In this document: piece by piece, positions 4,161-35,208 of the stretch | Layout of the letters: every line of letters starts with the position of its first letter | Numbering within the stretch: position 1 is the stretch's first letter | NCBI GenBank assembly: GCA_051294375.1 | Contig: CM119267.1 | Span: 3,619,793-3,683,792 of the forward strand | Direction: 5' to 3' | From: Paraspadella gotoi | Taxonomy: Eukaryota; Animalia; Chaetognatha | DNA: 64,000 nt | The notes under the pieces: generated by a model | What the model was told of the DNA's origin: nothing | Database searches by the model: none | What the model saw: the letters and a program-made list of their open reading frames with translations, nothing else | Made by a program: the position numbers and the translations under genes

Positions 4161-6221
4161 ATGACATCTTCCGAGGGGCTCTTGTCGCTCGTGAACCAAC
4201 TTCAAAACATGGAAACCGCCATGGGCCTCTTCCTAATAGAGACGGCTCTCAAACTCTCCACCTTCCACGATACCAAGTTCTTCGTGATGGTCGACCTTCC
4301 CGAGGGGCGGAAGATCGCCGGCAAGACGGAGATGATCCAATCTTTCGTGGAAGGTCAGCTGCTGCCGACGCCTAGCGACGCCAAGATCGAACTTAACCCC
4401 AGCGTCTCCGCACTGGTAGAGATTCCACTGAGAGGCGGGATAACGCCCACCCCGGTCAGCATGTTCAGCTCCAATTCCGCCAAGCAGGACTCTCGGTAAA
4501 TCTGCGATTCTTCCAGGGGGAAACGAAGAATCCTATAGTTAGGGACGACGTGATAATCGAAATTTGGGGTTTATTTTACTTTCGCCGACTGGGTTTAGGG
4601 AGGGGTTAAGGGTTGCTTAGGGGTGGTTTGGGGTGGTTATTAAAGCGTTTGATTAAAATTCTAAAAGTGAGGAACGAACAACATTATACTAATGAACATT
4701 TATGTATACAAAATTTTTATGCAGTAGGCCATATTTATATTAGTACTAATCCAATAAATGTTACAATTTCAAAATTGTTTTTGTAAGATTTTTTTGCAGA
4801 TTTGGATTCGTCATGAAAAGTTGATATGAAGAAATATAGCTCTTTTTTAAAAATTCTTTCATTAAGTTGATCAAATATAAAAAAACCTATATTTTAAGCT
4901 AAAAAATAGAATTTTATATATTAAATAGTGTTTTTTTTTTAATTTTTAACCCACTTAATAAAAACCGCGGTAGGCGAAAGTAAAATTTAGCCAAAATTTG
5001 TTTCCCCATGTTTCTTCCCCTGGTTCCAGACCGTTCCGCCCTTATCCACCCGCCAGTTTTCGTCAGCCCTACATGTCTTCCTACGATTCTTCCGTCGCCG
5101 CCATGAATCGCTCCGCCGTCTACGACGCCGCAGGCCCTCGCTCCGTCAAGTCGCCGAAGATGAGTTCGGGCGGCGCCTTGTCCCCGAAAGTGGAGACCCC
5201 CTACGACGGGATTTCATCGTCGGGGCGAAAGCGCGCCGGTCAGCCAGGATCGCTCTACGACCCCGCCGGCGTCGCCTCTCCCAAGATGCGAAAGGAAGAA
5301 CTGAAGATCGAAGGCGGAGACGCGGAGGAATCCTCGGTGGTTGGCGACGACGAGGACGACAGCCTCCAGGAGATTTACCCCGACGATGACAATCACGCCG
5401 GCGTCGGCGGCGGCGACGACTACGTCATTCCTTCGTCGGTGGCGCAAGCTCATTTGGCAGGCTCCGTCAAATCGTACTCTCCTTTCGCCACCGCCGGACA
5501 TCATCACCACTCGGACCTGAACAGCGAGGACCACGCCCACCGTATCGCGTTGGCGCAGCAGTTCTCCTACGACGACGTCAAAGCCAAAGACTCGACGGGG
5601 TTCAAGGTGATCGCCAGCATCGTCTACGCCAAGGCCAAGGAGCTTGCCGCCGAGTGCCCCATTCCCAACTACAAGGGGCCCGAGGTGAACAACTACCTTC
5701 GTCAAGAATACCTAGCTTGGTTCGCAGCCACCTTTCCCCGGTTGTACGACACCAAGGCGACGGCCCTCTTCCGCGCCCGCATGCAAATTTGTTTTCAAAC
5801 TATTCGTAAGAAACTTTTTCCGCCGCAACCGTCGCCGCAACAGCAGCAGCACGCGCACATGGGAGCCGTTGCGACGGCGTCTTCCGTGAGTCAAGGCATG
5901 GGCGGCATGATGGTGCCCAGCACGGCGCCTTCATCGGCTTCGGGTACCAGTCTCGGTGGCGGAACAGGGTATCCCGATCGGGCGTTCGGAGACGCCGCCT
6001 CCGTTGACCGTCGCGACGAGATCGGACATCACGATCAAATCGGGCAAGATCACGAGCGGTTGAGTCAAGGCGGCCGCGACGAGGCGGAGGGACAGGATCA
6101 CGAGCGCGATGATCACAACCGGGCTCTTCATTCGGCCAACTTGGAGGCAGGACTCGGGGCAATCCCCCTCAATTCCTACGCCGTCGCCGACAACCGGACC
6201 AACGAAAATTATCCTTTTTAA
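4161..6221 (+). CDS. Uncharacterised 508-aa protein, probably nuclear; two ordered segments separated by low-complexity sequence
   Basis: Exons 4161-4495 and 5030-6221 join in phase 2 (cg|gtaaat...ttccag|a). GC-rich coding-like codon usage; SP-rich, acidic and SUMO-like (PKVE, LKIE) motifs. Confidence 0.75.
4652..4960. mobile_element. AT-rich interspersed foldback/MITE-like repeat, copy A (intron of the unknown gene)
   Basis: 4652-4840 matches the reverse complement of ~33325-33520 (e.g. gcagatttggattcgtcatgaaaagttgatat vs atatcaacttttcatgacgaatccaaatctgc); parts of 4790-4960 also match 33205-33310. Confidence 0.7.
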
Positions 6222-10433: not shown

Positions 10434-11093
10434 TTAATTCAATGAAGCATAGACGAATATTATATTTTTCAATCCAAACATGCCGCGCAGCGAATCATGT
10501 CGACCTTTAATGTGATTCTTTGGTAGCTCATGACGAAAATTCTCAAGTTGATGTTTTTCTTAATCATCTCAGGGAAGAATCTCTAGAAAATCAGGTAGAT
10601 ATTACCTGATTGCCATCAAGTCCAGAATTATAGATGATTTGGTTTTCGTTTTTCGACTCCAACCACCTCACAGTGGCCTTTTTCAGAAAAACAAATTGAT
10701 TTGTATGATTATTTTCATGCAGTATTCTTATTTAGTTAATACCGATGTCTTCCTTATTTCTTGACATGAAATGAAACGCATTCTTCCGTGTAGTACATAT
10801 ATGGATTACACGGTGTGTGACTCATTTTATAAAACGCATTTTTATTTTTCGGATTAACACATCGCAGTGTTATTCTTTATTGATATGAATGTTTGATTCA
10901 ATTTATTACAATTTTTGGAATACTCTTATTTAAATTGTGTCGACTTATTATTTTACAAGAATTTTTAGTTTAAGACTTTCAATCAGTTAGTTTCTTTAAT
11001 GCCTATGTTTACTACTTTAGTTCACCTCAACTCCCTCTTTAGTCTTTACCCCCGTCCTACTTTATAAGCCAAAAAAAGAGGAAAACTTTCATT

Positions 11094-14000
11094 ATGAAAA
11101 CCGAATACGAGGAGCTGGTCTCCTCACAACTTCGGTTGCCGACGGGGTTTTCGCGCTCTGAGGACGAGGGCAATCGCGTGACGATCTTGACGACTTGTGA
11201 TTGGTTGACTTTCGTCCAATCGCAAGGTCGTCTACCTAACGAGGACGTCCTTTCGGGGCGAATATCAGAGGACGATCGTGTCAGAAATTTGGCCCCGTCC
11301 ACCCAACTGGTTCCGGCGCCTTGGATTCGAGTTCGCGTCATCGTGGAACCCAAAAGCGACGCCGTCGTTCAGGTCGTAGTCGATAGCGACGCCGAGGAAT
11401 CGGGCCCCGGCGAGACTCCCTTTTTAAATCTTGCTTCCTTCGTGGCTGACTCGTTCTACGAAAACGTTTGGCGGTCGTTCAACGGCGGCGACCGACCGCC
11501 TCGTCGGCGCATCGTCGAAAAAAGAAGGGACGATGCCGTCGTCGCGGCGTTGGAGGCGCTCTACGAGCCCGGCGAAGCTCGAGACGGCGTGGGCGTGGGA
11601 CTCTCCGAGGATCCCACGGCTTCCTCGATCTCGACGACGGGTGGTCACCCAAACATTGACCCATGCTACTGCGTGCTCGACTGCCGCAAAGCAGTATTGA
11701 TTCTACAGCCTTATTCCCCGTTCAGCCTTTTTCACGCGGCCACGTACACCCAGTCGCTGTTGACGGACAACTACGCAAAGTCGCTCTTCGTCTCGTACCA
11801 AATTTTGAGAGCCATGTCGTTTTGTCACTCACGCGGACTTTACTTGGGCGATCTCAGACTCGACGACGTTAGCGTCAACGAGAAACTTTGGGTGAAAATA
11901 TTCCCTAAATCTTTGGAGGACACTTTCGTCGGGGGAGATAATCGTCGGGGGAATGAAGGGAAGTCGCTATGCGAATCTGGAGTCGATTGGAAAAAACCGC
12001 TCAATGTTTTGACCCAGCAGTGGGTGGAAGGACTCATTTCCAACTTTGACTATCTTATGCTATTGAACCGACTGGCGGGTAAAGTGAAAGGCGATCCCAA
12101 CAATCATCCCATTCTTCCTTGGGTCGTTGATTTTTTGAGCCCTCAGAACTATAGGGATTTGACCAAATCTAAATACAGACTTAACAAAGGAGATCACCAG
12201 CTGGATTTGATGTACGAGTCACAACAACTACAAATACCTGTTGCCCACGATGTCGGAAATTGTTTTCATCAAGATTTTGCTCGCACGCCTCACCATATTT
12301 CCGATATGCTCTCTGACATCACCTACTACGTTTACTGCGCCAGACGCATCGACAAAAGCACATTATGCGCTCACGTGCGAAGCAATTGGGTTCCAAACGA
12401 GTATCCCTCTTCCATGCAGAGGATGTATCTTTGGACCCCCGACGAATGCATCCCCGAATTTTATACGGAGCCCTCGATCTTTACATCGATTCACGAAGAT
12501 CTTCCAAACTTGGACATTCCGCACTGGGCCGAAAGTCCCGAAGACTTTATTGTCAAGCACCGTCAGATTTTAGATGGTCCCTACGTATCGAGACATTTGC
12601 ATCATTGGATCAATCTTACCTTTGGTTATATGCTCTCTGGTCAGCCCGCTGTTTCGAATAAGAATGTTTGCTTGAGATTGGTTGACGGCCATGAAGAAAT
12701 TAGTGCTCACGGAGTTGTACAATTATTTACTCATCCTCACCCTCAAAAACTAGTCAAAGAGATCAATCAGCCGAGTATAATCGAAACTAATAACCTTAGA
12801 GTAAACATAGAATTAAATGCTGATGATTTATCAAACTGTCACATAGCGATCTCCACTCCATTTACTGACACCCACACAGAAGATGCTATTGAAGCATCTG
12901 TTGAATCTACTGAAAAAAAATCTTCAAAGTCTTCTAAGGATGAAAGTAAACGACTTTCGATTGATTCTAAAATTTTATTACCTGAAGGCTTTAATCCATT
13001 AGCACAGCTCGAGGGAGTTGAGGCTCTTTATAATTTTGTGTCTAAAAGCATGCATCGTACTCCACAAAGCGATGTTTGTGCAATTGATAACAGTGACTCG
13101 ATATCACAATCGAGGGTTCAGCGTGATATGGAATGTTTTGCTGTTCTGATGGCGGAAATGATACTCGCTAAACGACTTCGGTTTGAGCTAGGTGACAAAT
13201 TGCTATCTTGGGAAGAACGACGCCAAATCGTAAGGACTGTGTTTGGAGAAAGATTCACTGAAATTCCACGACCATTCAGGCGGATCCTAAAAATTTTGTT
13301 GCTCGAAGGTTCCATCGAGTCCAACTTTTACGGAGCGCCCTTGACTCCTTATGTTCTCTTACATCCTCTTGTTGACATTATTGCATTTCCAGCTTTTTTT
13401 TCGGAGCTTTATTCGTTTATAAAGAAATTACATTTTTTCAACGATAGCCATTGTAGTTATTCAGAAAGCACGTCCAATTTGGCAAATACTGAAAGTCGCA
13501 ACAAAGTTGACTTGTGCGCGAAAGTGTTGCCATCTTTATTACCAAATCTCACTGGCGAATGTCAAGAGATACTTTTGCCTTACCTAAAGGACCTATTTAT
13601 TAATCCACAGACCGCGGTGGCCTCTGCATGGCACTTGTTTGGTATCATTGCCACCAATTTCGGACCCGAGAAGATTATCAAGGATTTTTTGCCATCTTTA
13701 GTTAAACTTTTTCAAGATGAAGGCTCCACCTCAAAACACATGAAACTTTACCATAGAACTTTCATGTTACAGATGATGGTTGGTCTTGGCCTGCAAACCT
13801 TTTTATTGTCATTTTCGACGCTTTTAGTTGAGGCTACCGCTGGTTTCAAAAATTTCGACGATGATTTTATTGAAACGGTCGAAGTCGAAATTAAGGAAAT
13901 TCCTGATGAGATTCTTCTTCGTCAAGAAACTTATTCTGAAAATGAGGAAGAAAATTCTATCGTGAGATCTGCCAGTTCACAAACAAAATCTGATAGTTCT

Positions 14001-16646
14001 TCATCTACTGATGTTTTTGATCGCCTCGACTTGGGTCCAGTTTTGGAAACGGATTCTGACTGTGAAAGAAATATTTCGGACGATGACAATGAGAGCGTCA
14101 CGTTAACCGAGCCTGTAAAAAGGTTTGAAGTGGATATTGTTGACATCGACAGTTGCAATTTGTTAGGTACATCAGTTCACAGTATTTCTCGTGTCATCGA
14201 TGCGACTAGCAGGAGGGCTCGTGAAAAAGTATCCGATGTAAGCAATGGCAGCATATGTTCAAATGACAATGTAGAAAGTGCAGGAAATTTGGAAGATTCG
14301 TTGAAATCCAGTGGCACTGGTAGAAGTTCTGGATTTTCAACGGAGCAATGCAACATTTCTACAGTTTCTTCCGAGACAATAAAATGGCTGACTTATCGAC
14401 TGGGCCCTGTTCTAACTACAAAATATATCAGTGGAAATTTGTTAAAAATGCTCTCTTTGTGTTACCTCGGTTCAGATCAACTGCAACAACCTTTTGGTGA
14501 TAGAGAAATCGCTAAACTTTGGTACACTGTTAATGGAGATTTTAATGCGAAAAATGTTCTCGATTGTCTTTCGAGCATCGCTGTACAATATGGAGAGCAG
14601 ATCATTCTTCTTCACTATTTTCCTTATCTAGCGGAGCTTATTAGCTCCTGTTCTCGGAAGAATAGATTAAACACAAGGACAGAAGCCGGACTAGTTTCGG
14701 CGATGGTTTTGTTAAGACATTGCCTTCCACTTCTAGCCGATCAAACTCTAATGGATTATTTGCCGGACGTCGTTTTCAGAGACATTTTAAATCCGACGAT
14801 CCAATTGATTTCCAGCCCGAGCCTAGGGTTTCCATCCGGAGCCTTATCGCGATCCGTTATCTGCTTTAAACTCATCGATGTCATGATGATGGTATCTCTT
14901 CGTATTGGTTTCGAAATGACGAGGAAGATGATGACGACTCTATTGACCAAATTCTTCGCTTGTTTCGACAACGTGCATTCTTCCCCAGGAACGGAAGATT
15001 CTAAAGAGATAATCGCCAATTATATCGATGTCGATGCTCACACCGGTCACTTTGAGAAAGAAAAACCTTCGCAATCGCAATTTCAGTCTTTCGCGGATGC
15101 GAAAGAGGTCAAACACGTTCGCTCTTCGAGTCTTTATTCTTTATCCGCGTTGAACATGGAATCTAAAGAGAGCGAAGTATCGGAGAAGGAGGCGAGCCCC
15201 TCGGAGGACGAAGAGCAAAACAAGGCAGAGTTGAAGAAAGTCTTTACATCCGGGTTAGCGCATTCGGTTTACGTTCCGTTCTGTAAATTAGCCGGAAACA
15301 TTCACCTCGATCAGACACTTACCAACAAAGATTTGATTCACTCACTCGTCGCCAAAGTCGAAAGTTCCTTCGCTAACGAGGCGGAAAATTTATCCGCCGA
15401 TCCTCGAATGACCAAGGCGGGTTCGGGGACAGGTTCTTGCAATCCCTCTTCCGTCAGTGGCAACTTTGGGAAAGACGTTGCCGTCTCCGGAAATAGAATA
15501 AACCTCTCAAGTTTGGGTGAAACAGCCACGCCTCCAAGTCCCGCTCGGCCAACGCTCTCACCCGATTTGGAATCGCGAGCCTTGGTCGATTTGACATCCG
15601 TCGATGTTGGCCAATTGAAGAGTTTCGACATGCAGAACGGGAATCGGCATTTGAAAGGCAACTGGCTTCAGTATTGGGAACACGAAATCGGACTGAGCGC
15701 TCAAGACGCCAACAGTTTCGAATTCAAAGGAATTAGATTGCAGTCCTTCGTGGGTCACGCCGGTTCCGTTCGCTCTCTCTGGGTCCTCGACAACGAAAAC
15801 TCTTTCCTCAGCGCGTCCAAGGACAAAACCGTCAAGCTCTGGTCGATTAAAAATTTCGGGGACGGATTGGGAAGAACCTATTCTCGGTGGACTTATCCCC
15901 ATCACAAAAAATCCGTGTTTTCCGTCATGTTTCTCAACTCTTTGCGATTAGTGGCCTCATGCGATTCCACCGTTCACCTCTGGGATCCCTTCATTGCTTC
16001 CGTCGTTCATCAATACGACGCCAACAAACTTCCGCCGGTCAGCGTGCTCGCCCCCGTACCGGCGCCTTCTTCCACTCTCGTCGCCGCCACGACCGACAGC
16101 TCGTTGAAGTTGCTCGATTGTCGAAATCCCGCCGCCGTCAACCTGCCCGACCTCCGCGTTTCCTTGGGGTCCGTCGGTCCGATCCGCTGCGTGGCCGTTT
16201 CCCCCGACGGATCGTGGGTCGCATGCGGGTTTTCATCCGGGATGATCGGCGTCGTTGATCTCCGCACCGGCCTCATTTTGGGCATGTGGAAGGCGCACGA
16301 GGGAGAAGTGTACAAGGTGGAAGCCTTCGATCGCTCCACCATCGTCACTTCCTCCTTCGATCAATCCATTCAAGTTTGGGACATCCACGCCAAAAAGAGA
16401 ATGACTCATCTTAAGGGTCACATGGAACCCGCCCATTGTCTCGCTTTTTTCAAATCCATGGTCCTTTCGGCGACGACGTCCAACCGGATCGGCGTGCATT
16501 CCAACATCACCGCCAACTCCTCCTTCGCAGTCTCCAAACTTCACACGGATGTCTTCAAGGGGGTTTTGACCACCATGTCGATTTTGCCCTTAAATCGGCT
16601 GCTGCTTTTGGGCGCCGACAATGGCAACATCAAATTGTGCTGTTAG
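11094..16646 (+). CDS. WDR81: WD repeat- and BEACH domain-containing protein 81, 1850 aa, single exon
   Basis: Kinase-like start (YQILRAMSFCHSRGLYLGDLRLDDV), BEACH (ISNFDYLMLLNRLAG, RDLTKSKYRLNKGD, WTPDECIPEFY, HHWINLTFGY), C-terminal WD40 (SASKDKTVKLWS). Confidence 0.95.
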   Translation: MKTEYEELVSSQLRLPTGFSRSEDEGNRVTILTTCDWLTFVQSQGRLPNEDVLSGRISEDDRVRNLAPSTQLVPAPWIRVRVIVEPKSDAVVQVVVDSDAEESGPGETPFLNLASFVADSFYENVWRSFNGGDRPPRRRIVEKRRDDAVVAALEALYEPGEARDGVGVGLSEDPTASSISTTGGHPNIDPCYCVLDCRKAVLILQPYSPFSLFHAATYTQSLLTDNYAKSLFVSYQILRAMSFCHSRGLYLGDLRLDDVSVNEKLWVKIFPKSLEDTFVGGDNRRGNEGKSLCESGVDWKKPLNVLTQQWVEGLISNFDYLMLLNRLAGKVKGDPNNHPILPWVVDFLSPQNYRDLTKSKYRLNKGDHQLDLMYESQQLQIPVAHDVGNCFHQDFARTPHHISDMLSDITYYVYCARRIDKSTLCAHVRSNWVPNEYPSSMQRMYLWTPDECIPEFYTEPSIFTSIHEDLPNLDIPHWAESPEDFIVKHRQILDGPYVSRHLHHWINLTFGYMLSGQPAVSNKNVCLRLVDGHEEISAHGVVQLFTHPHPQKLVKEINQPSIIETNNLRVNIELNADDLSNCHIAISTPFTDTHTEDAIEASVESTEKKSSKSSKDESKRLSIDSKILLPEGFNPLAQLEGVEALYNFVSKSMHRTPQSDVCAIDNSDSISQSRVQRDMECFAVLMAEMILAKRLRFELGDKLLSWEERRQIVRTVFGERFTEIPRPFRRILKILLLEGSIESNFYGAPLTPYVLLHPLVDIIAFPAFFSELYSFIKKLHFFNDSHCSYSESTSNLANTESRNKVDLCAKVLPSLLPNLTGECQEILLPYLKDLFINPQTAVASAWHLFGIIATNFGPEKIIKDFLPSLVKLFQDEGSTSKHMKLYHRTFMLQMMVGLGLQTFLLSFSTLLVEATAGFKNFDDDFIETVEVEIKEIPDEILLRQETYSENEEENSIVRSASSQTKSDSSSSTDVFDRLDLGPVLETDSDCERNISDDDNESVTLTEPVKRFEVDIVDIDSCNLLGTSVHSISRVIDATSRRAREKVSDVSNGSICSNDNVESAGNLEDSLKSSGTGRSSGFSTEQCNISTVSSETIKWLTYRLGPVLTTKYISGNLLKMLSLCYLGSDQLQQPFGDREIAKLWYTVNGDFNAKNVLDCLSSIAVQYGEQIILLHYFPYLAELISSCSRKNRLNTRTEAGLVSAMVLLRHCLPLLADQTLMDYLPDVVFRDILNPTIQLISSPSLGFPSGALSRSVICFKLIDVMMMVSLRIGFEMTRKMMTTLLTKFFACFDNVHSSPGTEDSKEIIANYIDVDAHTGHFEKEKPSQSQFQSFADAKEVKHVRSSSLYSLSALNMESKESEVSEKEASPSEDEEQNKAELKKVFTSGLAHSVYVPFCKLAGNIHLDQTLTNKDLIHSLVAKVESSFANEAENLSADPRMTKAGSGTGSCNPSSVSGNFGKDVAVSGNRINLSSLGETATPPSPARPTLSPDLESRALVDLTSVDVGQLKSFDMQNGNRHLKGNWLQYWEHEIGLSAQDANSFEFKGIRLQSFVGHAGSVRSLWVLDNENSFLSASKDKTVKLWSIKNFGDGLGRTYSRWTYPHHKKSVFSVMFLNSLRLVASCDSTVHLWDPFIASVVHQYDANKLPPVSVLAPVPAPSSTLVAATTDSSLKLLDCRNPAAVNLPDLRVSLGSVGPIRCVAVSPDGSWVACGFSSGMIGVVDLRTGLILGMWKAHEGEVYKVEAFDRSTIVTSSFDQSIQVWDIHAKKRMTHLKGHMEPAHCLAFFKSMVLSATTSNRIGVHSNITANSSFAVSKLHTDVFKGVLTTMSILPLNRLLLLGADNGNIKLCC

Positions 16647-16794
16647 TCTCCTTTTTTTCTTTTAATTTTTTTTTTACGCGACTTATACCCCAGAGTTTCA
16701 TTACTTTTTATTTACTCGTTTTATGGTTTATACAGTATTTATAGGAGGCGATGAAGGAATAACTAATAGTTTTTCCTCCGCGGTAAAAGGGACG

Positions 16795-19700
16795 ATGGAT
16801 TCTTCCGTCGACACTTATCTTATTCCTGATTCGAACAATACTCAAATACATAATCTAGTCGAAGATGTCAACAAACTTTCGATGGGCGAAGAAGGGCCGT
16901 CCGTCCAAGGGACTCCGAACGACGGACGCACGGACGAGCGACCGCTTTCCGCTCGGACGCGATCGCGGCGAAAGAAGCAGTTTGCCAAGAGCAGCTGCGG
17001 CGGCGGCAATGAAACCCCTTTCCGCCCCGCAGAGGTCGCGACTCCAAAAAGACCCAATTCCGCCAGGACGAGATCCCACCGACAATTATTACAGAGTGAG
17101 TTAAACCAAAAAATTTATTTAATTTCGGAAAAATAAGTACTTTCCGAACATTACGTACATACAATTCAGATTCTTTTCTTTGTGTAATCCTTTCGTTTCG
17201 TTGCTTTAGGAATTTGCAGGAATAAGTTTGATTTGTTTGTGACAACGATTTGTTTTATTTCATTTTAGAAACGGACATGTTTCGGCTTTGAATTCAAGCC
17301 TTCATCAGCGTTGACAGATTTGTAAATTATATTTCAAATTTGTGCATAAAGAAGACTTATTTATTAATAGCTAATTGTTAAAGTTAATTCAGTTTATAAA
17401 TTTATTATTTGTTGTACATTGTACAATTATTTTCAACTTCACCCTGTGACTCTCTCTCTCTCTCTCTCTCCTCTTCTCTCTTTTCAATATCATCATTTCA
17501 ATTTCCCTTCACAAACTAATTCTATTCTGTTCATAACTTAAATTTGTCCTCAACATTGACCACTGTTCTTTCGCAAATCTGTGTTGGGAAACTTTGCCCT
17601 TTGTCTCTCTCTTTTTAATTCTATTTTGTTCACAACTTAAATCTGTCCTCAACATTGACCACTGTTCTTTCTCAAATCTGTGTTGGAATACTTTGCCCTT
17701 TATCTCTCTCTCTCTCTCTGTCTTCTTTATGCACAAGTTTGAAATATAATTTACAAATCTGTCAACGCTAATGAAGGCTTGTATTCAAAGCCGAAACATA
17801 TCCGTATCTAAACTGAAATAAAACATAGTTGTCACAAACAAATCAAACTTATTCCTGCGGATTCTTTTCTAAAATGATTCCCGAATCACATAACTAATTT
17901 TTTTTTATTCTGACATCAGACGGTGATTTGACCGACGGTCGCCCCAAGTCTGCCGGCGTCGCCTCGCGAAACCGACGACGAAAAGACGTTAAGGATCAAC
18001 TAAACTCCTTCGATGGCGCCTCTCCTCGATGGCCGGACACTAATCCCGAAACTGGTAACCAAAAACAATGCAAAAAAACCTTCAATGTGGCCGCCGGGGG
18101 TCGCCAAAACTTTAGACAGAGATGGGGCAAACCTTTCAAGGGGCGTCGACGAAGCTCAAGCAAAACCGAGGATGAAACTCACTCAAAACCCAAAACGCCT
18201 TCCACCGCCGACGACGATTTAAACGCGACGCCACAACAACAACAACAATCGGCTCGATCGAAAAGCGGGAGACGCCGCCGCCGACGCTCGACCAAATCCG
18301 ATTCCGAGGCCTACGTCGTTGGATCCTTGGAGGAAAACTTGCAGCCTTTGATGGAGTCTTTCGTCAAAGGATTGCCCACCGGTCTCGTCTTCGATTCGCA
18401 AATGAATCAACATCGGTCACATCATCGCGCCTTTCACGTGGAGCGACCCGAGAGAATAATCGCCATCTACGACAAAATGTGCGAATCGGGGCTCGCGAGT
18501 CGCTGCGAATCAATCGCCGCCCGTCCCGTTCACGATGAGGAGATTCTTTCCTTTCACGACGAGACTCTTCTGGAAAAATTGAAGTCGGCCGAAAATCGTT
18601 GCGAAGGCGATGAAGAGTCTCGCTCCGTTTTTGACGCCCTCACAGCCTCACACGAGGACGTTTACTTTAACGCGTCGACGGCGGAAGCGGCGCGCCTTTC
18701 CGCCGGGGCCTGCGTCGATGTCGTCGAGCGGGTCGTCGACGGTAGTCTCAAGAACGGGTTCGCCGTGGTACGCCCGCCGGGGCACCACGCCATGCGTTCC
18801 GATTTTTGCGGATTTTGCTACTTGAATAACGCCGTTCTCGCCGCCAAGCACGCCGTGGACAATCTGGGTTGCGGCAAGGTGCTCATCGTGGACTGGGACG
18901 TGCACCACGGACAAGGTACTCAGTACGCCTTTTACGACGATCCGCGTGTTCTCTACTTTTCCGTCCATCGCTACGCATTCGGCAGCTTTTGGCCTCACCT
19001 TCGGGAGTCCGATTACGACGCCATCGGCGAGGGCGAAGGCTTGGGCTTTAACGTCAACGTGCCTCTCAATAAAAAAGGATGCACCGACGCCGATTACTTG
19101 CACATCTTCTTTCAAATTCTTCTTCCCATCGCCTACGAGTTTTGTCCTGAACTCGTCATTGTCTCCGCCGGATTCGACGCTGCCCTGGGCGACCCCTTGG
19201 GCGAGATGCGCGTTACCCCTTCTGGTTTTGCTCAAATGATTCGACTCGTCAAACTTTTCGCCGAAGGTAAAGTCGTCGTCCTCTTGGAAGGCGGCTACAA
19301 CTTGACGGCGCTCTCGGAATCCGCCGCCGCCACTCTGAGCGAACTGCTGGACGATTCGCCTCCACGACCGCAGATCGGAGGCATGAGGCCAGATCCCCTC
19401 GTATGCGACGCCGTTCACAATCTCAAGTCTGTCCTGCGTCCGTATTGGCAATGCTTTTCCAAAGTCAACCTCTTTCACAGTCATCGGCGTCCCTCTTCGG
19501 AGAGCGCTTCTCCCCCTCCACCGCCGCTATCGCGATCTCAAAAACACGACCTCGTCCAGTTTAAATCTTACGAGAATCCTCCGCGCTGCTATTCGCCAGA
19601 TTATTACGATCCTCAGCCCGAAGAGGAAGCGGCGTCTATCGAAGCCGCGATCGCCGCCTCCGTCGCCCTTCATCCGCGACGCCGCGTCGCCGGGACCGCT

Positions 19701-21221
19701 CTTGTCTACGACTCTGCTATGAAGCGGCATCGTAACGCCGTCGATCCGGGCCATCCAGAAAAGCCGGAGAGGATAGGCGTTATCTACTCTGAGCTAGCCC
19801 GATGGAAACTGTTGGCGCGATGCCATCTCGTGGACTCGCGGTTAGCGACCGAGGCTGAGCTCAAACTTTGTCACGAGGAGAAGCACGTGTCGGCCATGCG
19901 TTCGACGAAGACGTCCGGCGGGCGAGAGTTGTTTAAGATGCAGACGGACTTCAACTCCGTTTATTTAAATCAGTCTTCCTTCGATTGCGCCCGTCTCAGC
20001 TGCGGCTGCCTACTCAACGTTGTCGACGACGTCATGGCAGGGCGGCGACGCAATGGCGCTGCGATTGTGCGTCCGCCTGGACATCACGCCGAGCGCCACG
20101 TAGCCTGCGGATTCTGCCTTTTCAACAATGTGGCGGTCGCGGCGCGATATGCGCAGGCGCGGTTCGCCGGCGTCTGTCGCCGCGTGCTAATTGTTGACTG
20201 GGATGTTCATCACGGAAACGGGACGCAGCACATCTTCCAAGACGACCCGAGCGTCCTCTACATCTCCATTCATCGACACGACGACGGCGGGTTTTTTCCC
20301 TGTGGTGACGACGGTGACTTCGACCGAGTCGGCTCTCGACTCGGCGCCGGGTTCAACGTCAACGTCCCTTGGAACACCAACGGGCGACGAAGTGTCGGTG
20401 ACGCGACTTATCTCTCCGCCTTTCTCGACGTCGTGATGCCGGTGGCGACGCAGTTCGATCCCGACCTCGTTCTTGTCTCTGCAGGCTTCGACGCCGCTAT
20501 GGGTGACCCCCTGGGCAAGTTCCAGGTGACCCCTATGGCCTACGCCCACATGACTCACATGCTTTGCGGTTTGGCCGAGGGTCGCGTCGTGCTGGCGCTT
20601 GAAGGGGGTTACAACTTGAAGAGCATCTCTGAATGCATGACGGCCTGCGTGCTGACTCTGCTGGGTTGCCCTCCACCGCGTCTTGCACCGCACAAGCGAG
20701 CGATGCACGGGCGTGACAGGCAATCTATCGAAAACGTCGTCAGCGCCCTCGAACCCTTTTGGCCGATTTTGAACTCGAGGATCTTGGCAGAGGAAAGCGA
20801 AGCTGGCATCTCCTCTCCTGTGGATCTTAATCAAAACAAGAAGAAGGAAGTGGACGAAGAGTTGAACGATGTTTTTGAATCTTTAACCCTGCAAAGCACT
20901 CCAATACCTTTCGTCACGAAGCGGGAAAGCCTCGATCCCGATTTGAAAATCAAAATGGCGGAATTCGATTTGAAGTTGGCCGAAGTTCCCGCCGTCGTAT
21001 CGCCCGAAGTTCAACAAGAAGCCAAGCACCTCATCCGGGTTCTCCTTCTCGGACAGGAAGGCGCCAAGCAGTACGAAGAATCTATCGTCGAAGAAGACGT
21101 CGCCGTAGTGGAAGAGAAAGCGCCGCTGCCGCCGCTCGTCTTTAATTTGGAGACTCCCAAAGTTGACGTGGGATCACCCGGGTTAAAGTCGGACGAAATA
21201 ACTGTGGTGGAATGTGATTAA
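16795..21221 (+). CDS. HDAC6: Class IIb histone deacetylase with two intact catalytic domains (HDAC6-like), 1200 aa, no ZnF-UBP
   Basis: Exons 16795-17095 and 17920-21221 (a|gtgagt...atcag|ac, phase 1). Both domains have RPPGHHA, DWDVHHG, SAGFDAA.GDPLG and LEGGY. Confidence 0.9.
17270..17312 (-). ncRNA. Minimal type I hammerhead ribozyme motif (PLE-type)
   Basis: Minus strand reads AACG-CUGAUGA-A-GGCUUGAAUUCAAAGCC-GAAAC-AU-GUC-CGUU: stem I AACG/CGUU, stem II GGCUU/AAGCC, palindromic ACAUGU stem III, GUC cleavage triplet. Confidence 0.75.
17764..17806 (+). ncRNA. Degenerate hammerhead copy (core CUAAUGA = G5A; GAAACAUAUC)
   Basis: AACG-CTAATGA-AGGCTTGTATTCAAAGCC-GAAAC-ATATC-CGTA. Same motif as 17270-17312 with core and stem III substitutions. 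Confidence 0.6.
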
Positions 21222-21348: not shown

Positions 21349-24300
21349 ATGTCGGAAAATCGACCCTGCGAAACATGCGGCGAAACGGATTATTACGAAC
21401 AGGGCGGATTTTATTATTGCCAGGAGTGCAACACCCAGGTGAGAATATTAAACGAGACACGACAGTTCGGGAAAATCCAAGTAATTCAATTCGCTATATA
21501 ATTTTGAAACAATTTAAATATTGAGGAATAATTCATTTAAGAAAAAAATTTATACTAGTCTCAAGGTATGCGCCGCATCGAAAACGCCAATGAACATTTT
21601 GATATGAGCGGCAATCGTACGTGCATCTACACCAAAGTCGACAAACACATCAGAGAATTGGAGAAGGAAGAGCTCGACTTCGGAATTCCATGGACGACTC
21701 ACGACGCTTTCGGAATTCTTCTAAAGGTACGTTGTTTTTTTGTTTGTTTTTTTTTATGGAAAATCTCGGTCATATGTTAATAATGTTTTTGAGGCTTTTA
21801 GTTAAGTTAGTCGTCCGTTCAAATTTTCTGGCAGGATTGGTTTAGATTTTTACGATAGCCTTTTTCGCCTCGTGTCAAAAACTATTCTTAGGTAATCTCC
21901 AAAGATTGGCATGTTAATGTTTGGCTAGTGTTTTTTATAGGAGGGTGTTCTTTTTTTATAATCATAGAAAACAAATAATATTGTGAAGAAAGCATGACTC
22001 GCCTACGTGTCGTCCAACGAGATTTGGACGCAACTCGCCATGCTAATCTCAACTACAATCGCGAAGCCGAGGCCATGCAAAAAGAGCACGAAGAATATCT
22101 CAAGTATCCCCTCGACGTCGATGCTTGCATAAAAAAGCTGACGGCTCATTCCAAAGGTGGGCGCGGGCAGATTCGTCCGGCAGTTTCGTTCGTTCGTCTT
22201 TGAAAAGCTTACGGGATAATCCGCCTTCCCTCCCAGAGATAAAACCAGTAATGGTGGATCTCCAAGAGGTGGAGCTCCGCTCCATCATCGCGCGTACGGA
22301 ACATATCCTCGGACAACAGCCCATGTTGCTGGACCTGGATTCTCCCGTCAAGATCGTGGCCGACACCCACGGCCAGTTCGTGGATCTTATGCGAATCTTC
22401 GAGAGTTGTGGGTGGCCGCCCAAGGCCAATTATTTGTTTTTGGGGGACATGGTCGACAGGTGGGCGATAATTCATAGAAGGATGCAGCTCGTGGAGTCTA
22501 TTGGCGATTCGTCGTTCCAGAGGTCCTCAGCAAATCGAGACGGTGGCTCTTCTTTTTTGCTACAAAATCAAACATCCGGGAAATATATTTTTACTGCGGG
22601 GAAACCACGAGTCCGGTTCTCTCCATCGTCGTTACGGTTTCCAAGGAGAATGTAAAAATCGTTACAGGTTTTAAAATCCTTGGCGTGCGTGACCAATTTG
22701 ACAAATAACAAATCTACGATTCTACTCCATGGTTTACAACGTCCTTCTTAGTCTCAAATTATGGCGGGCTTTCGTGGAGTGTTTCAATTGGTTGCCAGTC
22801 GCCGCCGTCGTCGATGAAAAGATCTTCTGTTGCCACGGAGGGCTTTCTCCGGATCTCCTCAAGGGCGAGGGGCTGGACAAGATTCGCCAGTTGCCGCGAC
22901 CCACCGAGGTTCCGGACGATGGCATCATTTGTGACCTCTTATGGGCGGATCCCGATCCGGACGTCAAGATGTTTCAGGTCAGAAGAAATGAGAAATGGAA
23001 GAAATGTCGATTGATGACTCGACGATGCTCTCCTCGGCACGGAAATTAGGAGAGCGATCGTGGCGTCTCTTATCTCTTTGGCGCGGCGGTGGTGGAAAAG
23101 TTTTTGGACAAGTACGACATGGATTTGATCTGTCGCGGTCATCAGGTCGCCGACTGAGCTGGCTTTTTCAGATTCGCGCGCGCCTCCCTATTTTTTTGGG
23201 GGTTCAATCGCCCGGCTATTTTCAGGTCGAAACGGACGGTTACTCTTTTTTCGCGGATCGTCAACTCGTTACCCTTTTTTCCGCGCCTAATTATTGCGGA
23301 GAGTTCGACAACGTTGGCGGCATCATGACCGTCGAGGAGGATCTCACCTGTTCCTTTCAGGTCTCGAATAATTGCGCTTTCTTATTATGTAGAGATGGAA
23401 CGGTTAAAAGGGTTCGTCCGTTCCCCACAGGTGGTCCAGCCTGCGGACCAGAAAAAGAAGCCGGCCGGAAAAGACAAGGGGGGAAAGAAGGAAAAGAACA
23501 AGGTGGCAATTGGTTCAAGCGCTTACATCGTCTCTCGGTCGATGTCGTATATTTTATTTCATTCAGAACGCGACTCGGAATTTCAATTACGCCAAAGCTT
23601 GCAACGACACCAACTGCTCCATGTGCTTCGGCGCTCGAACTGCTTCCAAAGGCCCGCGTTGCCCCATTTCCTGATTCGCTGATTATAAAATCTTTTGTTT
23701 TTTTTTTTTTTTTTTTCAAAATAAAAAAATACTTGCGATCAAAGTTTAGTTTTTTATTTTTAAGCACAAGTCACAATTTTAGACGAGCAAAAAATGGCCA
23801 GCTTATCGTCAACTAATAAATACTAATTTAATAAATCGACTACTTAGTATTACTTAGTTAAAAATTCATATTGGTTGTGTCGGGAAGAAACTTTCGTGGA
23901 TTCTTTCATCGGCTTTTATTCATCGGATTCGTTTATGATCGAACATTTATCCATCTATGGATCAATTTGATAAACTTTGTTAATGAATTTTTATTTATAT
24001 GCATTTCTTAGGCTCAAGCGGAAGCACTCGTAAAATTGGGCGCTCCTGCTGCACTCCCGATCTTGGTCGAAAAATTGTGGACGCGATATCAAAGCCGAAA
24101 GTCAGGAACTCCCTTGCCTCGAGATCGTGACACCGCCAAAGATTTGTCAAAAGGTAACTTGAAATAGGAAAATAGGAAAAGAAATAGCTACGCGGTTAAG
24201 CGAGAAAGCAGCCTTTTTCCGTTTACAGGGCTGCCTCCCTTGGCCTCCTGGCGAGCATTTCGTAAACGGAAGGGGAGATGGCCCAAGAAGATTGAACCCT

Positions 24301-26669
24301 CCTTTTTGACGCCTGAGGAAAGGAAGGATTGGAAGACGCAGCAAGGGATCGAGGAGGAAGAAGAGGAAGAGGAGACGCCATCGCCAGATGTGGAGCGAGA
24401 CACCAATGAATTTTATGGAATTGGTGCGTTAATCAATGTCAAAAATTTATTTTCTTCTAAATTCAGTAGTACAGAAATGGTGAAAAAAAAGTGAATAATT
24501 AGGCTTTTCTCTATTTAAAATATTAACTTTAAAACATTTACATTTTTAAAATTTAAAATCAGCAACCCGTACTTCATACCACCAAATCAAACGCATGAAA
24601 ATGGGATACAGTCTATGCTTTATTTACATTTCTCTTCTTCATTTGGAATCGCACGTGTCTCTGGGTAAATAAATAAGTTCTTTCCTGAGGATTTTTCTCA
24701 AATTGATATTTTCCGTTGTTATTTTTGAGCCGACGTGCTTCGCTGGGGCCGCGAATGCGCTCTCCCCTACCTCAATCCGCTGCATTTCTTTCCTGACAAT
24801 CTCAAGTTCTCCGGTTACGACCTCAAAACCTTCGCCAACGTCAAGTGTCTTCCTACCCCGACTCAAGTCAGACAAGACGCCGGACGATTGACCCTCTTTT
24901 TGCAGGTTCCGTCTCATTCAATTGCTTTCTCCTTTTCTCCTTCTAAAACCTCTTTCCGCTGATTTTCTTGGCAGTTGAACCCTTTTCCCGCGGTGGACAT
25001 TCGCCGTTTGGTGGCGCGATACTTGATCGACTTGAATCTCCCCGACGACCTCATGAAGATCTCATCCGGCATCATCTCAGCCCTGGACGTGCGAAGCCCC
25101 GTCCATGCCCCTCGACCCGGAACCGCGCAGGTTGGGGCGGAAATTCCTTCGCTCTTTCCCCCTTTTTATTTTTTCGTCTCCTATAACGGAATTTTCCTTT
25201 ATCGATCTCTTCAGTCTATTCCCAACTACGAAGCGATGGGCGTGGCCGTATTGCTCATGACGCTCAAGCTCGTGTTTCGTTTGGATGGCGTGACGGAGTT
25301 TGTTTTGTCTCACCTCGTCGCGGAGTTGGAGAAGATCGAAGAATTTCGCAAGAGTCGGAACATCAAGAGAGATTCCTCCGATTTGTGGTCAGCGGTGCTG
25401 GGTTTTAAATTTAAAACAAAAAAATTGAATAACAATTAAGTTAACAATATTTAACATTTTGTTAGGTATATTCCTCCTTCGACATCCGCGCCACCGGAAA
25501 TGTTTTCCTTCTCCGAGTGGTTCCAATTTGCCTGTGAGTACCACCCTTGTAATTTTTTTAGTCTTTTTTGGGGGTTTTTTAGTCTACGTTGTACGTCTTT
25601 TTTTTTCTAACAGCGGAGTGTTTGGTTCGCCTCAAATCGCGAAAGTTTCCTACACCCGAAGATCTTGAATGTGGCGAAGAGGTCGGATCCGACGTGGCTC
25701 ATCTTGCCCTTCATTATTCTCACAATTTGGTGAACAAGAAAGGGTCCGTTCGTCGAGCCGATCTCCCTTCTCGTCTTCGAATCGACGCCCTCCAATCCGC
25801 CATCGCCGACCTTCTTCTCGACGGCGCCGACGTCTCCGATTCCACCGCCCGCAGCAGCGTCACTTCGTTTCCGGTTCTCGGTGCCCTCGAGTCGCCGGAA
25901 AACGACGCCGCCGCCGAAGCCGAATGGCGAGCGAGTGCGGGGGCGGCGTCGAATTCAGAAGCGTCGGGGAAAAAGCTCTTCCGACGTGATTTGGGATTTT
26001 TAATTCGGCCGCCATTGCAGCAAAAGTTGCTCAAAGACGACGTCGTCTTGCGGACGCTCAACCTGCCGCATTATGAGATCGACGAGGAGACTGGAAAAGC
26101 GGTAGGTGGGCAGATTTGGCGGGAAACGACTGGAGTTGATTGATCATCCTTTCTATTTCGATTTAGCGCTGTGACTGGTCGGCCTGTGGAATTCGCGAAC
26201 CCGGCAAGAAACTCTTTTCCAACAGAAAAACTGTCAAAAATCTTTTATCTCACCAAACCAAGTATTGTTTTCTCATCGAATGGGGAGCGGAAAACCTGGG
26301 AAAAAGGTCTAGCACATTAATAATAATAATAATAATAATATTGTAGTAAATTTCTGATTTTATTAGTAAATGAGAAAAAAAATTTTTATTTGTTTTTCAT
26401 ACAACGAATTTGTATTTTTATTATTGGTAATAAAAAATGACAAAAAGTAATATTTTTTTTTCGCTAGCCGTACTCGAGCGGAGGAAATAAAGGAATTAAC
26501 GTTCAACCAATCGCAAACAGTGAAAGTGTTGATCGATCTCTGCGCCGAAATGTTGGAGGAAGATCCAAAGACGTTGACTTACGACGTCGGAAAACTGGAA
26601 CGGAGATACCCGATGGACGCGGTCGCCTCGAGGGCGACGTCTCGAGAAGCTGTCCGATCTCCCTATTGA
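21349..26669 (+). CDS. TAF1B: RNA polymerase I initiation factor TAF1B/RRN7 (TFIIB-related), 699 aa, 12 exons
   Basis: Exons 21349-21438, 21559-21726, 24012-24153, 24229-24423, 24563-24664, 24730-24905, 24975-25130, 25215-25387, 25466-25533, 25614-26101, 26167-26306, 26468-26669 (total 2100 nt). Zn ribbon CETC...GFYYCQEC; [12 protein letters not shown]|[15 protein letters not shown]; [26 protein letters not shown]; LKLVFRLDG. Confidence 0.85.
21994..23674 (+). CDS. Divergent PP1-like Ser/Thr phosphatase catalytic subunit nested in TAF1B intron 2, 389 aa, 8 exons
   Basis: Exons 21994-22156, 22237-22459, 22521-22667, 22752-22977, 23050-23145, 23226-23360, 23431-23502, 23567-23674. [49 protein letters not shown]. 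The last exon is less certain. Confidence 0.88.
23878..23950. repeat. ~75-bp interspersed repeat, inverted copy at ~38126-38202
   Basis: tgtcgggaagaaactttcgtggattc.ttcatcggcttttattcatc is the reverse complement of gatgaataaaagccgatgaacgaatccacgaaagtttcttcccgaca. Confidence 0.7.
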
Positions 26670-29489: not shown

Positions 29490-29538
29490 AAGAAATTTAC
29501 CGCCAAGTGTTTGTGATTTATCTTTGTCTAAAACAATT

Positions 29539-29930
29539 GATCTTTTCTCGAAATATACGTTAAAAAATGTATTGAATAACTCCGTCCAAACTCCAAATTG
29601 TGCGAAAAATATTTTACTCGAATCCTGTTTTATTTTTTTCTACAGCGAATTTTTTTTTACAAATATTTTTGAACTTTATTAACTGACTCTTTGACCTTGG
29701 ACCCTCGGCGATGAATCCCTCAAAAGTGGAATCGATCTTTTCTCGAAATATACATTAAAAAATGTATTGAATAACTCCGTCCAAACTCCAAATTATTTGT
29801 GCGAAAAATATTTTACTCGAATCCTGTTTTATTTTTTCTACAGCGAATTTTTTTTTACAAATATTTTTGAACTTTATTAACTGACTCTTTGACATTGGAC
29901 CCTCGGCGATGAATCCCTCAAAAGTGGAAT
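29539..29930 (+). repeat. Recent ~195-bp tandem duplication of the GINS2 upstream region plus first 7 codons
   Basis: 29539-29732 and 29734-29930 are near-identical; both end in ATGAATCCCTCAAAAGTGGAAT. Confidence 0.92.
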
Positions 29931-32864: not shown

Positions 32865-33204
32865 TGGGATTTTCTTATCGTTTTTAGTACGTTTGAAGTA
32901 CGGATTAAGGAAACCTCAGAAAATGTTCCGGATTTCTTCGCAACTGTGATAAACAATGTAACTTTTTTTCAACGCGCTCATTTCATGCCACCCAGGTATA
33001 CAACTTTACTGTACATTAAAGCGTAGTGAAAGTTATATACGAAAATTCTAAATGTCAATTAAGAACAACATACTATCAGTGAATATTAATTTGTAAAAAA
33101 ACTTAGTTTTATGTTCTTCAATTTTCGCAAAAAGCTATATTTCTATATAGTACTATCCTTTTAAAATCGACAAAAATTCAGAATAGGATTTTCTTAATTT
33201 TGAT

Positions 33205-33520
33205 TGCAGATTTGAATTCCTCGTCAAAAGTTGATAAAAGAAAATATAAATCATATTTAAAAATTCTTTCATGAAGTGGGTTAAAAATTAAAAAACTATA
33301 TTTAATATAAAAAATAAAAAGTTATATTTCTTTATATCAACTTTTCATGACGAATCCAAATCTGCAAAAAAATCTTACCAAAAACTATTTTGAAATTTTA
33401 ACATTTATTGGATTAATACTAGTATAAATATGGCCTACGGTGTAAATGATAAAATTTATTATATAATTTTTTTATACATAAATGTTTATTAGTATGTTCC
33501 TCACTTTTAGATTTTTAATT
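33205..33520. mobile_element. AT-rich interspersed foldback/MITE-like repeat, copy B
   Basis: Internal inverted repeat (33206-33248 vs 33324-33365) and homology to 4652-4960. Confidence 0.7.
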
Positions 33521-34924: not shown

Positions 34925-35208
34925 AGTATTATTTGTATTTTCACTATGGAGAGGCAGTGCAAGTACAAAAAAAAACTGATATTTTTTGCCAAATATTTCG
35001 ACCTAGTACAATTCAGTAGTAAAATATTTAAAAGGAATGTTTTTTAAAAAAATAAAACTAAGAGAGAGCGCTGAAACTTTAAATGACCAAAAGACCCAAA
35101 ATTGGGTTGCCCCCTCCCTTTAGTTTTAAGTCAAAATACTTGGCAAAAAATATCAGTTTTTTTTGGTACTTGCACTGCCTCTCCATAGTGAAAATACAAT
35201 TAATACTT
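34925..35208. mobile_element. MITE with ~78-bp terminal inverted repeats just upstream of the PM20D1-like ATG
   Basis: 34925-35002 is the reverse complement of 35130-35208 (cactatggagaggcagtgcaagtac / gtacttgcactgcctctccatagtg). Confidence 0.8.

What the first reader, a model, noticed from the sequence alone, without database searches (positions are those of the whole stretch)
17210..17864. Inverted pair of hammerhead ribozymes in the HDAC6 intron: antisense copy intact, sense copy disabled
Seen: ~145-bp inverted arms each carry a minimal hammerhead motif followed by AATAAA. The minus-strand copy (17270-17312) has CUGAUGA...GAAAC AU GUC with paired stems I and II and a palindromic ACAUGU. The plus-strand copy, which is the one present in the HDAC6 pre-mRNA, reads CUAAUGA and GAAACAUAUC. 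Known: Penelope-like retroelement pLTRs carry such minimal type I hammerheads, thought to act as dimers, and occur in inverted arrangements; G5A is a standard inactivating change. Inference: selection removed self-cleavage only on the transcribed strand, as expected if cleavage would damage the host or polycistronic precursor. With one locus, chance cannot be excluded. The arms could also fold into a long intronic dsRNA.
Basis: partly seen in the sequence, partly recalled or inferred. Interest (0 to 1): 0.75.

Follow-up and report, generated by a model that had tools for sequence, protein, structure and literature searches.

The report
Fold-back Penelope stub in HDAC6 intron
The two mirror-image ribozyme motifs in this gene's intron are real, but they are the two ends of one insertion that likely comes from a common jumping gene (a Penelope-like element), and the damage to the transcribed copy is likely ordinary decay, because that copy is predicted to be locked in a long hairpin and would hardly cut even if it were intact.

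Summary
Observation confirmed; interpretation partly. Both hammerhead motifs and the 824-nt HDAC6 intron (17096-17919, junction bridged by a contig) are real. The arms are the ends of one 680-bp insertion (17180-17859) with an 11-bp target-site duplication, head-to-head arms and a 36-nt tail on one side only. This is the published layout of Penelope-like element insertions, and opposite-strand minimal hammerheads 100-700 bp apart were described in 2014. The 43-nt core is very abundant in this species' contigs. In 107 other loci with the same core, 57 of 57 inverted pairs point outwards, and 27 have one broken partner. "Sense broken, antisense intact" has probability about 0.22 under neutral decay. 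Two core hits in the sense arm are less expected (about 0.03; 1 of 26 comparable pairs). Selection is not needed: single motifs are reported not to cleave, and the sense motif is predicted to pair with the upstream antisense arm (54 kcal/mol against the ribozyme fold). No parent RT/GIY-YIG gene was found, and a genome-wide strand test was not possible. The scan noted the same kind of stub on other genomes (117 notes match the words). A new member of a known kind; low interest.

The parts
16723..17095 (+). HDAC6 exon 1 coding part (start codon 16723 or 16795, not resolved); donor GTGAGT at 17096
   Evidence: exon end joined to 17920 in a contig of X9; aligns with P0001 across the junction
17096..17919 (+). 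HDAC6 intron 1, 824 nt, GT-AG, phase 1; 133 nt without the insertion
17169..17179 (+). Left copy of 11-bp target-site duplication GATTCTTTTCT
   Evidence: only exact repeat >=7 nt between the two flanks; chance 0.003 by shuffling
17180..17215 (-). 36-nt one-sided extension ('tail') of the minus-strand copy, absent from the plus-strand copy
   Evidence: contigs from other places continue past the end of the right arm into this sequence (loose ends at 17857/17858); summed depth stays high to 17180
17216..17356 (-). Left arm: inferred pLTR fragment, antisense to HDAC6
   Evidence: contigs from other places end at 17356
17254..17259 (-). AATAAA downstream of the antisense hammerhead
   Evidence: sequence
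17270..17312 (-). Intact minimal type I hammerhead (stem I 4 bp, extra A after A9, stem II 5 bp, palindromic ACAUGU, predicted cut after C at 17274)
   Evidence: 49.2 bits
17357..17719 (.). 363-nt low-copy spacer inside the insertion, with (CT)n runs and a 96-nt tandem duplication (17517-17612 / 17616-17711, 93%)
   Evidence: summed depth falls to 287 in X7 at 17364-17387
17720..17858 (+). Right arm: inferred pLTR fragment, sense to HDAC6, no tail
17764..17806 (+). Broken minimal hammerhead: G5A (17770), G16.2A (17800), stem I U-to-A (17806)
   Evidence: 32.0 bits
17817..17822 (+). AATAAA, the only one on the plus strand of the intron, not mutated
17860..17870 (+). Right copy of the 11-bp target-site duplication
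   Evidence: a contig of X8 matches 17829-17990 without a difference
17920..21221 (+). HDAC6 exon 2: two deacetylase domains, no ZnF-UBP domain found

Best explanation
The two motifs are the ends of one 680-bp insertion with an 11-bp target-site duplication in HDAC6 intron 1, likely a fold-back stub of a Penelope-like retrotransposon, whose sense hammerhead is predicted to be inert in the pre-mRNA and likely lost its core letters by neutral decay. Shown: target-site duplication, head-to-head arms, one-sided 36-nt tail, intact and broken minimal hammerheads, splicing around the insert, abundance of the core in the species' contigs. Inferred: a PLE RT/GIY-YIG protein acting in trans copied the ribozyme-bearing pLTR end twice, head to head, with 363 nt of spacer, in one event. 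In the parent element the motif would cut as a dimer through the ACAUGU palindrome. In the HDAC6 transcript the antisense arm is made first and is predicted to pair with the sense arm as it emerges (about 139 bp), and no second sense copy is near for a dimer. So neither copy would cut, and both arms drift: 2 changes are assigned to the left arm and 6 to the right.
For: TSD, chance 0.003. Tail on one side. The same layout (inverted pLTR, optional 31-bp tail, 8-10 bp TSD, mostly head-to-head) is described for Penelope in PMC3846280 (passages) and PMC8557442 (passages). Dual min-HHRs 100-700 bp apart on opposite strands, the extra nucleotide between 9 and 10.1, the 4-5 bp helix I and no cleavage of a single motif are in PMC4209133 (parts 1-2 of 4 read). 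Summed contig depth rises about 7-20-fold over exactly 17269-17312, with unrelated flanks as loose ends; listed variants lie in loop II, at N17 (C to A, 36% in X7) and as G-U wobbles, none in the core. In 107 metagenome loci, the stem I letters (outside the search pattern) pair in 74-91% per position and N17 is not G in 107 of 108 matches; covariation 0.52 against 0.15 shuffled (70 of 88 distinct sequences). 57 of 57 inverted pairs in 44 of 107 loci point outwards, 41-604 nt apart; 27 of 57 have one broken partner. Neutral simulation: P(sense broken, antisense intact) 0.21-0.23; 2 vs 6 events P=0.29. Fold: 39 of 43 sense-motif bases pair with the antisense arm from the moment the motif is complete; forcing the hammerhead stems costs 54 kcal/mol. 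Hammerhead cleavage within introns left splicing largely intact in reporter work (PMC2995048 passages citing Dye 2006 and Fong 2009).
Against: No parent ORF found: no RT or GIY-YIG among 80 of 125 window ORFs >=100 aa scanned, and among 77 ORFs of the metagenome loci only two RVT_1 fragments, not assigned to PLEs. PLE origin therefore rests on anatomy. Two core hits in one arm with none in the other have probability only 0.029-0.038 in the neutral simulation, and occur in 1 of 26 other pairs at 90-97% arm identity (0 of 21 at 92-97%). The comparison pairs come from other animals, with transcription status unknown, so they are not a selection-free null. One search's variant table omitted sites where its own piece list implies differences (17737, 17770), so the lack of core rows is weaker than it looks. 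Folding is equilibrium prediction without proteins. The helix II here (5 bp) is shorter than the 7-8 bp of the Schistosoma families.
Confidence: 0.7

Rival explanations
1. Same PLE stub, but selection favoured inactivation of the transcribed copy: intermolecular dimer cleavage in the intron would harm HDAC6 or downstream genes of a likely polycistronic transcript.
For: The broken copy is the sense one and has two core hits plus a stem I hit, a pattern of probability about 0.03 by chance. Neighbouring genes lie on one strand with gaps under 150 nt (WDR81 stop 16646 to HDAC6 start 16723/16795; HDAC6 stop 21221 to TAF1B-like start 21349). An 18,314-nt contig of X9 holds the spliced junction near its middle (a contig over several genes shows no single transcript). 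Xenopus retrozymes are depleted from introns (bioRxiv 10.64898/2026.07.22.740005, passages; no strand test there).
Against: One hit (G5A) would suffice, so the extra hits are not predicted by selection; the likelihood ratio over neutrality is about 1/P(sense broken) = 3. Single motifs were inactive and dimers weak in vitro. The motif is predicted to be locked in the arm duplex. The sense AATAAA is left intact. Reported hammerhead cleavage in introns was tolerated.
Confidence: 0.17
2. The sense-arm changes are private to the assembled individual (recent unfixed mutations) or assembly errors, so there is no species-level asymmetry to explain.
For: The right arm carries 6 of the 8 assigned changes, including neutral sites (with other copies as outgroup). 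The window has 835 N in five gaps, so it is a draft assembly.
Against: The right junction 17829-17990 is matched without a difference by a contig of another sample (X8). 2 vs 6 is not significant (P=0.29). Contig data could not resolve the alleles.
Confidence: 0.1
3. A MITE-like DNA transposon whose terminal inverted repeats happen to carry a hammerhead, amplified as a unit.
For: Inverted arms and a TSD. A contig of X9 shows another inverted pair with both arms ending at the position equal to 17356 and a 62-nt spacer (record 27). A pair with constant ~105-nt spacing recurs in 11 metagenome loci.
Against: The ends are not symmetric: 36 nt between the left TSD and the arm, 1 nt on the right. Spacers differ (363 vs 62 nt). 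Abundance is concentrated on the ribozyme core, not on the termini. The motif has the diagnostic traits of PLE hammerheads.
Confidence: 0.03

Closest known systems
Minimal type I hammerheads (min-HHR) in pLTRs of metazoan Penelope-like elements (Cervera & De la Pena 2014, PMC4209133; parts 1-2 of 4 read)
   Same: CUGANGA/GAAA/UH core, 4-bp helix I, extra nucleotide between 9 and 10.1, G10.1-C11.1, palindromic 15.2-16.2 with 2-nt loop, many dispersed single or truncated copies, dual motifs 100-700 bp apart on opposite strands (here 460 nt between the C3 positions).
Insertion units of EN+ Penelope elements (Adineta vaga Pen2/Pen2a, PMC3846280; general scheme in PMC8557442; passages read)
   Same: Inverted head-to-head pLTRs, 30-40 bp tail at one end only, short TSD around the whole unit, capture of unrelated DNA between pLTRs.
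   Different: No ORF remnant between the arms; TSD 11 bp (8-10 bp in the Adineta cases read); 363-nt spacer with microsatellites and a 96-nt duplication.
Non-LTR retrozymes of animals (bioRxiv 10.64898/2026.07.22.740005, part 1 and passages; PMC7229834 search listing only)
   Same: Non-coding, PLE-related, type I hammerhead, non-autonomous.
   Different: Retrozymes are head-to-tail tandem units that can form intramolecular dimers and circles; this is a single head-to-head pair that cannot.
Conserved intronic hammerheads of amniotes (De la Pena & Garcia-Robles 2010; seen only as a reference title, details recalled)
   Same: Hammerhead motif inside a host-gene intron.
   Different: Those are recalled as sense-strand, canonical and conserved across species; here the motif sits in a TSD-flanked mobile insertion and the sense copy is broken.

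Membership tests
min-HHR of metazoan PLEs | Catalytic core CUGANGA...GAAA...UH | tested here: met
   Minus-strand copy exact; plus-strand copy fails at G5 and G16.2 and is a decayed member
min-HHR of metazoan PLEs | Short helix I (4-5 bp) closing a type I fold | tested here: met
   AACG/CGUU; the same four pairs covary in related loci, 82.9% of cells paired, all four with changes on both sides
min-HHR of metazoan PLEs | [quoted passage not shown] | tested here: met
   A at 17301/17775; G-C closing pair in both copies
min-HHR of metazoan PLEs | Palindromic 15.2-16.2 and loop 3, allowing a dimer | tested here: met
   ACAUGU self-duplex -4.6 kcal/mol in the minus copy; ACAUAU +1.0 in the plus copy
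min-HHR of metazoan PLEs | Many dispersed, variable copies per genome | tested here: met
   93-331 contigs per run laid on one arm; summed depth 230,797 on the core against 287 on the spacer in X7 (summed depth is not a copy number)
min-HHR of metazoan PLEs | Self-cleavage as a dimer | not testable with these tools
   Needs an in vitro assay
EN+ Penelope-like element insertion unit | Inverted pLTRs, head to head | tested here: met
   Motifs point outwards; 57 of 57 pairs in other loci likewise
EN+ Penelope-like element insertion unit | 30-40 bp tail at one end only | tested here: met
   36 nt, 17180-17215, shared with copies elsewhere
EN+ Penelope-like element insertion unit | Short target-site duplication around the unit | tested here: met
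   11 bp, chance 0.003; empty site not seen directly
EN+ Penelope-like element insertion unit | Parent ORF with PLE reverse transcriptase and GIY-YIG endonuclease linked to the same pLTR | tested here: inconclusive
   None in the window (80 of 125 ORFs scanned); no whole genome held; none assignable in 77 ORFs of other loci
Non-LTR retrozyme | Head-to-tail tandem units each with an intact type I hammerhead | tested here: not met
   Only two motifs in 64 kb, on opposite strands
MITE (class II) | Symmetric terminal inverted repeats directly inside the TSD | tested here: not met
   36 nt between TSD and arm on the left, 1 nt on the right
Rfam hammerhead families | Match to a curated covariance model | tested here: not met
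   No hammerhead among 3 hits at E<=10 in 16000-19000; the minimal form has no helix III

The most novel reading that the evidence does not exclude
In this operon-like genome, the many intronic Penelope fold-back stubs are a built-in paired experiment (two arms of equal age, one transcribed as ribozyme, one not), and sense arms lose their catalytic core faster than antisense arms. That would be the first population-genetic evidence known to me that minimal PLE hammerheads cut host pre-mRNA in vivo, and that cutting harms polycistronic precursors.
Probability: 0.15. Interest if true: 0.6.

Novelty: new member of a known kind. Interest (0 to 1): 0.17.

Why it matters
As a single locus it matters little: head-to-head PLE stubs with minimal hammerheads are described and very common, and about half of such pairs have one broken arm. 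What is useful is the test it suggests. Whether PLE minimal hammerheads cleave in vivo is open (low activity in vitro, PMC4209133; no reads ending at the cut site in Anolis, PMC11167929 passage). Inverted pairs inside introns give age-matched sense and antisense copies, so a genome-wide comparison would test this directly. Two searches turned up no paper with that strand test; one search found 0 papers holding all four terms, and one search's 20 listed of 69 were about other elements.

Tried and rejected
Whole genome: none held, so no genome-wide strand test and no search for the parent element in this species. Rfam: no hammerhead match. RNA evidence: no RNA holder on record was listed; X9 is RNA by guess only, and all runs are contigs, so cleavage ends, strand, editing and small RNAs could not be examined. 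Alleles of the sense arm: in 4 of 4 runs every counted contig had the family letter at 17800 and 17806, and no piece without differences spans 17740-17857. A filter drops records (X7 has no cover at all over 17866-17990) and the variant table omits some sites, so this is not used as evidence that the lesions are private. An X4 contig starts exactly at 17860, the first base of the right TSD copy, as an empty-site allele would cause; a SNP or filtering explains it equally, so it is not used. Long contigs running from 17180 into the left arm were first taken for alleles, then rejected as such, since the tail makes them compatible with other loci. Parent PLE near related motifs: 77 ORFs >=135 aa in the 107 loci gave two RVT_1 fragments (L039, L071), not assigned and no GIY-YIG. 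No metagenome locus is homologous to the arms outside the core (one weak 59-nt match). The automatic de-duplication wrongly merged L047 with L019, so counts were redone by hand (57 pairs, 27 broken; after dropping 7 likely duplicates or contig-end cases 50 pairs, 24 broken). The alignment A1 used 70 of 88 distinct sequences; 18 near-identical ones were left out by eye. Its core columns are fixed by the search pattern, so the model R1 measures likeness to this motif type and not general hammerhead fitness. A second repeat (23878-23954 / 38123-38202) with CCGAUGA...GAAAG was considered as another hammerhead and rejected (weak folds; best model score there 8.1 bits). Luense et al. 2016 (dimer cleavage) was not held and is known here only through a review passage (PMC6765202). 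No supplements were read; supplementary alignments of PMC4209133 may list this motif type.

Full report
Observation. The minus-strand motif (17312-17270) has a 4-bp stem I, CUGAUGA, one extra A, a 5-bp stem II, GAAA, the palindrome ACAUGU and the triplet GUC. The plus-strand motif (17764-17806) differs by G5A (17770), a loop change (17782), G16.2A (17800) and a stem I U-to-A (17806). A strict descriptor finds one hit in the window and none in 100 shuffled windows. Rfam has no matching model, but a covariance model from 70 other loci scores the two copies 49.2 and 32.0 bits, against 13 for the next hit in 64 kb.

Host gene. The downstream exon encodes two deacetylase domains, and the best solved and named relatives are HDAC6. 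The intron is 17096-17919, GT-AG, in frame. A contig of run X9, RNA by guess only, starts at 17920 and is preceded by the last 30 nt of exon 1. The spliced peptide aligns across the junction with an unnamed relative, P0001.

The whole structure is one insertion. An 11-bp repeat, GATTCTTTTCT, lies at 17169-17179 and 17860-17870, the only exact repeat of 7 nt or more between the flanks (chance 0.003). Inside it lie a 36-nt stretch, the left arm (17216-17356), a 363-nt spacer and the right arm (17720-17858). Contigs from other places continue past the end of the right arm into the 36-nt stretch, so it is a one-sided tail of the element. Without the insertion the intron is 133 nt.

The family in this species. 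Laid on the left arm at 80% likeness, four runs give 93-331 contigs each. Summed depth jumps over exactly 17269-17312 (X7: 230,797 against about 30,000 on the outer arm and 287 on the spacer), with unrelated flanks as loose ends at both borders. Summed depth is not a copy number, but the core must be very abundant and shared by several families. Listed variants fall in loop II, at position 17 (C to A, which the UH rule allows) and at stem ends as G-U wobbles; none is listed in the catalytic core. This is weakened, whose table omitted sites that its piece list implies. One X9 contig holds another inverted pair ending at the same inner border with a 62-nt spacer (record 27).

The motif elsewhere. 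Letters outside the pattern behave like a hammerhead: stem I pairs in 91, 81, 91 and 74% of 88 distinct sequences (sum 3.37, best of 2000 permutations 2.5), and position 17 is not G in 107 of 108 matches. On 70 of them the covariation score is 0.52 against 0.15 shuffled (related sequences inflate this). In 44 of the 107 loci there are 57 inverted pairs, all pointing outwards as here, 41-604 nt apart; 27 of 57 have one partner with a core lesion, twice the same G5A (L008, L047).

What is known. Cervera and De la Pena (PMC4209133; parts 1-2 of 4 read) define this minimal motif, including the extra nucleotide, the short helix I and the palindrome. They report dual motifs 100-700 bp apart on opposite strands, no cleavage of a single motif and low cleavage of dimers. 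Inverted head-to-head pLTRs, a 30-40 bp tail at one end and 8-10 bp TSDs are described for Penelope insertions (PMC3846280, PMC8557442; passages). The scan's own notes list many such stubs in other genomes. No parent RT/GIY-YIG gene was found in the window, and the genome is not held, so PLE origin is inferred from anatomy.

Does the asymmetry show selection? Using other copies as outgroup, two of the seven substitutions are assigned to the left arm, and five plus the 2-nt gap to the right (2 vs 6, P=0.29). Placing seven substitutions at random over both arms gives a broken sense core with an intact antisense core in 21-23% of trials. Against my reading: two core hits in the sense arm and none in the other occur in only 2.9-3.8% of trials, and in 1 of 26 other pairs of similar identity. 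But selection predicts one hit, not two, so the likelihood ratio in its favour is about 3. The prior is low. A lone motif is reported inactive, and there is no second sense copy in 64 kb. The antisense arm is transcribed first: 39 of the 43 bases of the sense motif pair with it in every prefix folded once the motif is complete, and forcing the hammerhead stems costs 54 kcal/mol (arm duplex -209 kcal/mol). Reporter studies found splicing tolerant of hammerhead cleavage in introns (PMC2995048 passages). The sense AATAAA is untouched. Whether the lesions are fixed in the species could not be settled from contigs.

Verdict. A real, correctly read, ordinary fold-back Penelope stub with one intact and one decayed minimal hammerhead. 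Neutral decay about 0.7, selected inactivation about 0.17, private alleles or assembly error about 0.1. New member of a known kind; interest 0.17. The lasting value is the genome-wide paired test of sense against antisense arms.

Noticed in passing
window 2560-48764: All genes with Pfam hits (ChaC, ankyrin, WDR81-like, HDAC6, TAF1B-like, PP1-like, WD40 protein, PSF2, Sybindin, isochorismatase, RhoGAP) lie on the plus strand, several with gaps under 150 nt; an 18,314-nt contig of X9 holds the spliced HDAC6 junction near its middle. Operon-like; no spliced-leader evidence seen.
   Followed up: partly
window 21349-25436: A PP1-like phosphatase gene (22047-about 23360; STPPase_N and Metallophos) lies between the Rrn7 zinc ribbon (21349-21498) and the Rrn7/TAF1B C-terminal cyclin domain (24963-25436) on the same strand, so it appears nested in a TAF1B intron.
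   Followed up: partly
window 17920-21221: This HDAC6 ends without a ZnF-UBP domain, as does its closest relative P0001, whereas most of the 120 listed relatives carry PF02148.
   Followed up: partly
window 11043-16646: WDR81-like gene (BEACH + WD40) as a single open frame of 1867 aa without introns.
   Followed up: no
window 23878-23954 (-) and 38123-38202 (+): Dispersed 80-nt repeat (87.5%) with CCGAUGA...GAAAG; not a hammerhead by folding or by the model.
   Followed up: yes
window 34925-35005 / 35127-35207: Another short inverted pair (81 nt, 94%, 121 nt apart) without a hammerhead; MITE-like.
   Followed up: no
window 4648-4963 / 33134-33523 and 38470-38852 / 43159-43723: Two more dispersed AT-rich repeat families, partly in inverted and fold-back arrangements.
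   Followed up: no
window 29535-29732 / 29730-29930: About 200-nt tandem duplication (96%) that includes the start of the PSF2 coding sequence.
   Followed up: no
L003, L012, L017, L019, L020, L028, L029, L034, L047, L066, L098: An inverted hammerhead pair with constant 104-107 nt spacing recurs in many loci with arms only 75-95% alike, as if the fold-back itself amplified as a unit.
   Followed up: no
L008, L014, L035, L055, L064, L078: Several different minimal-hammerhead families cluster within a few kb (up to 7 motifs), including a three-copy 126-nt tandem in L035 (1542-1794), retrozyme-like.
   Followed up: no
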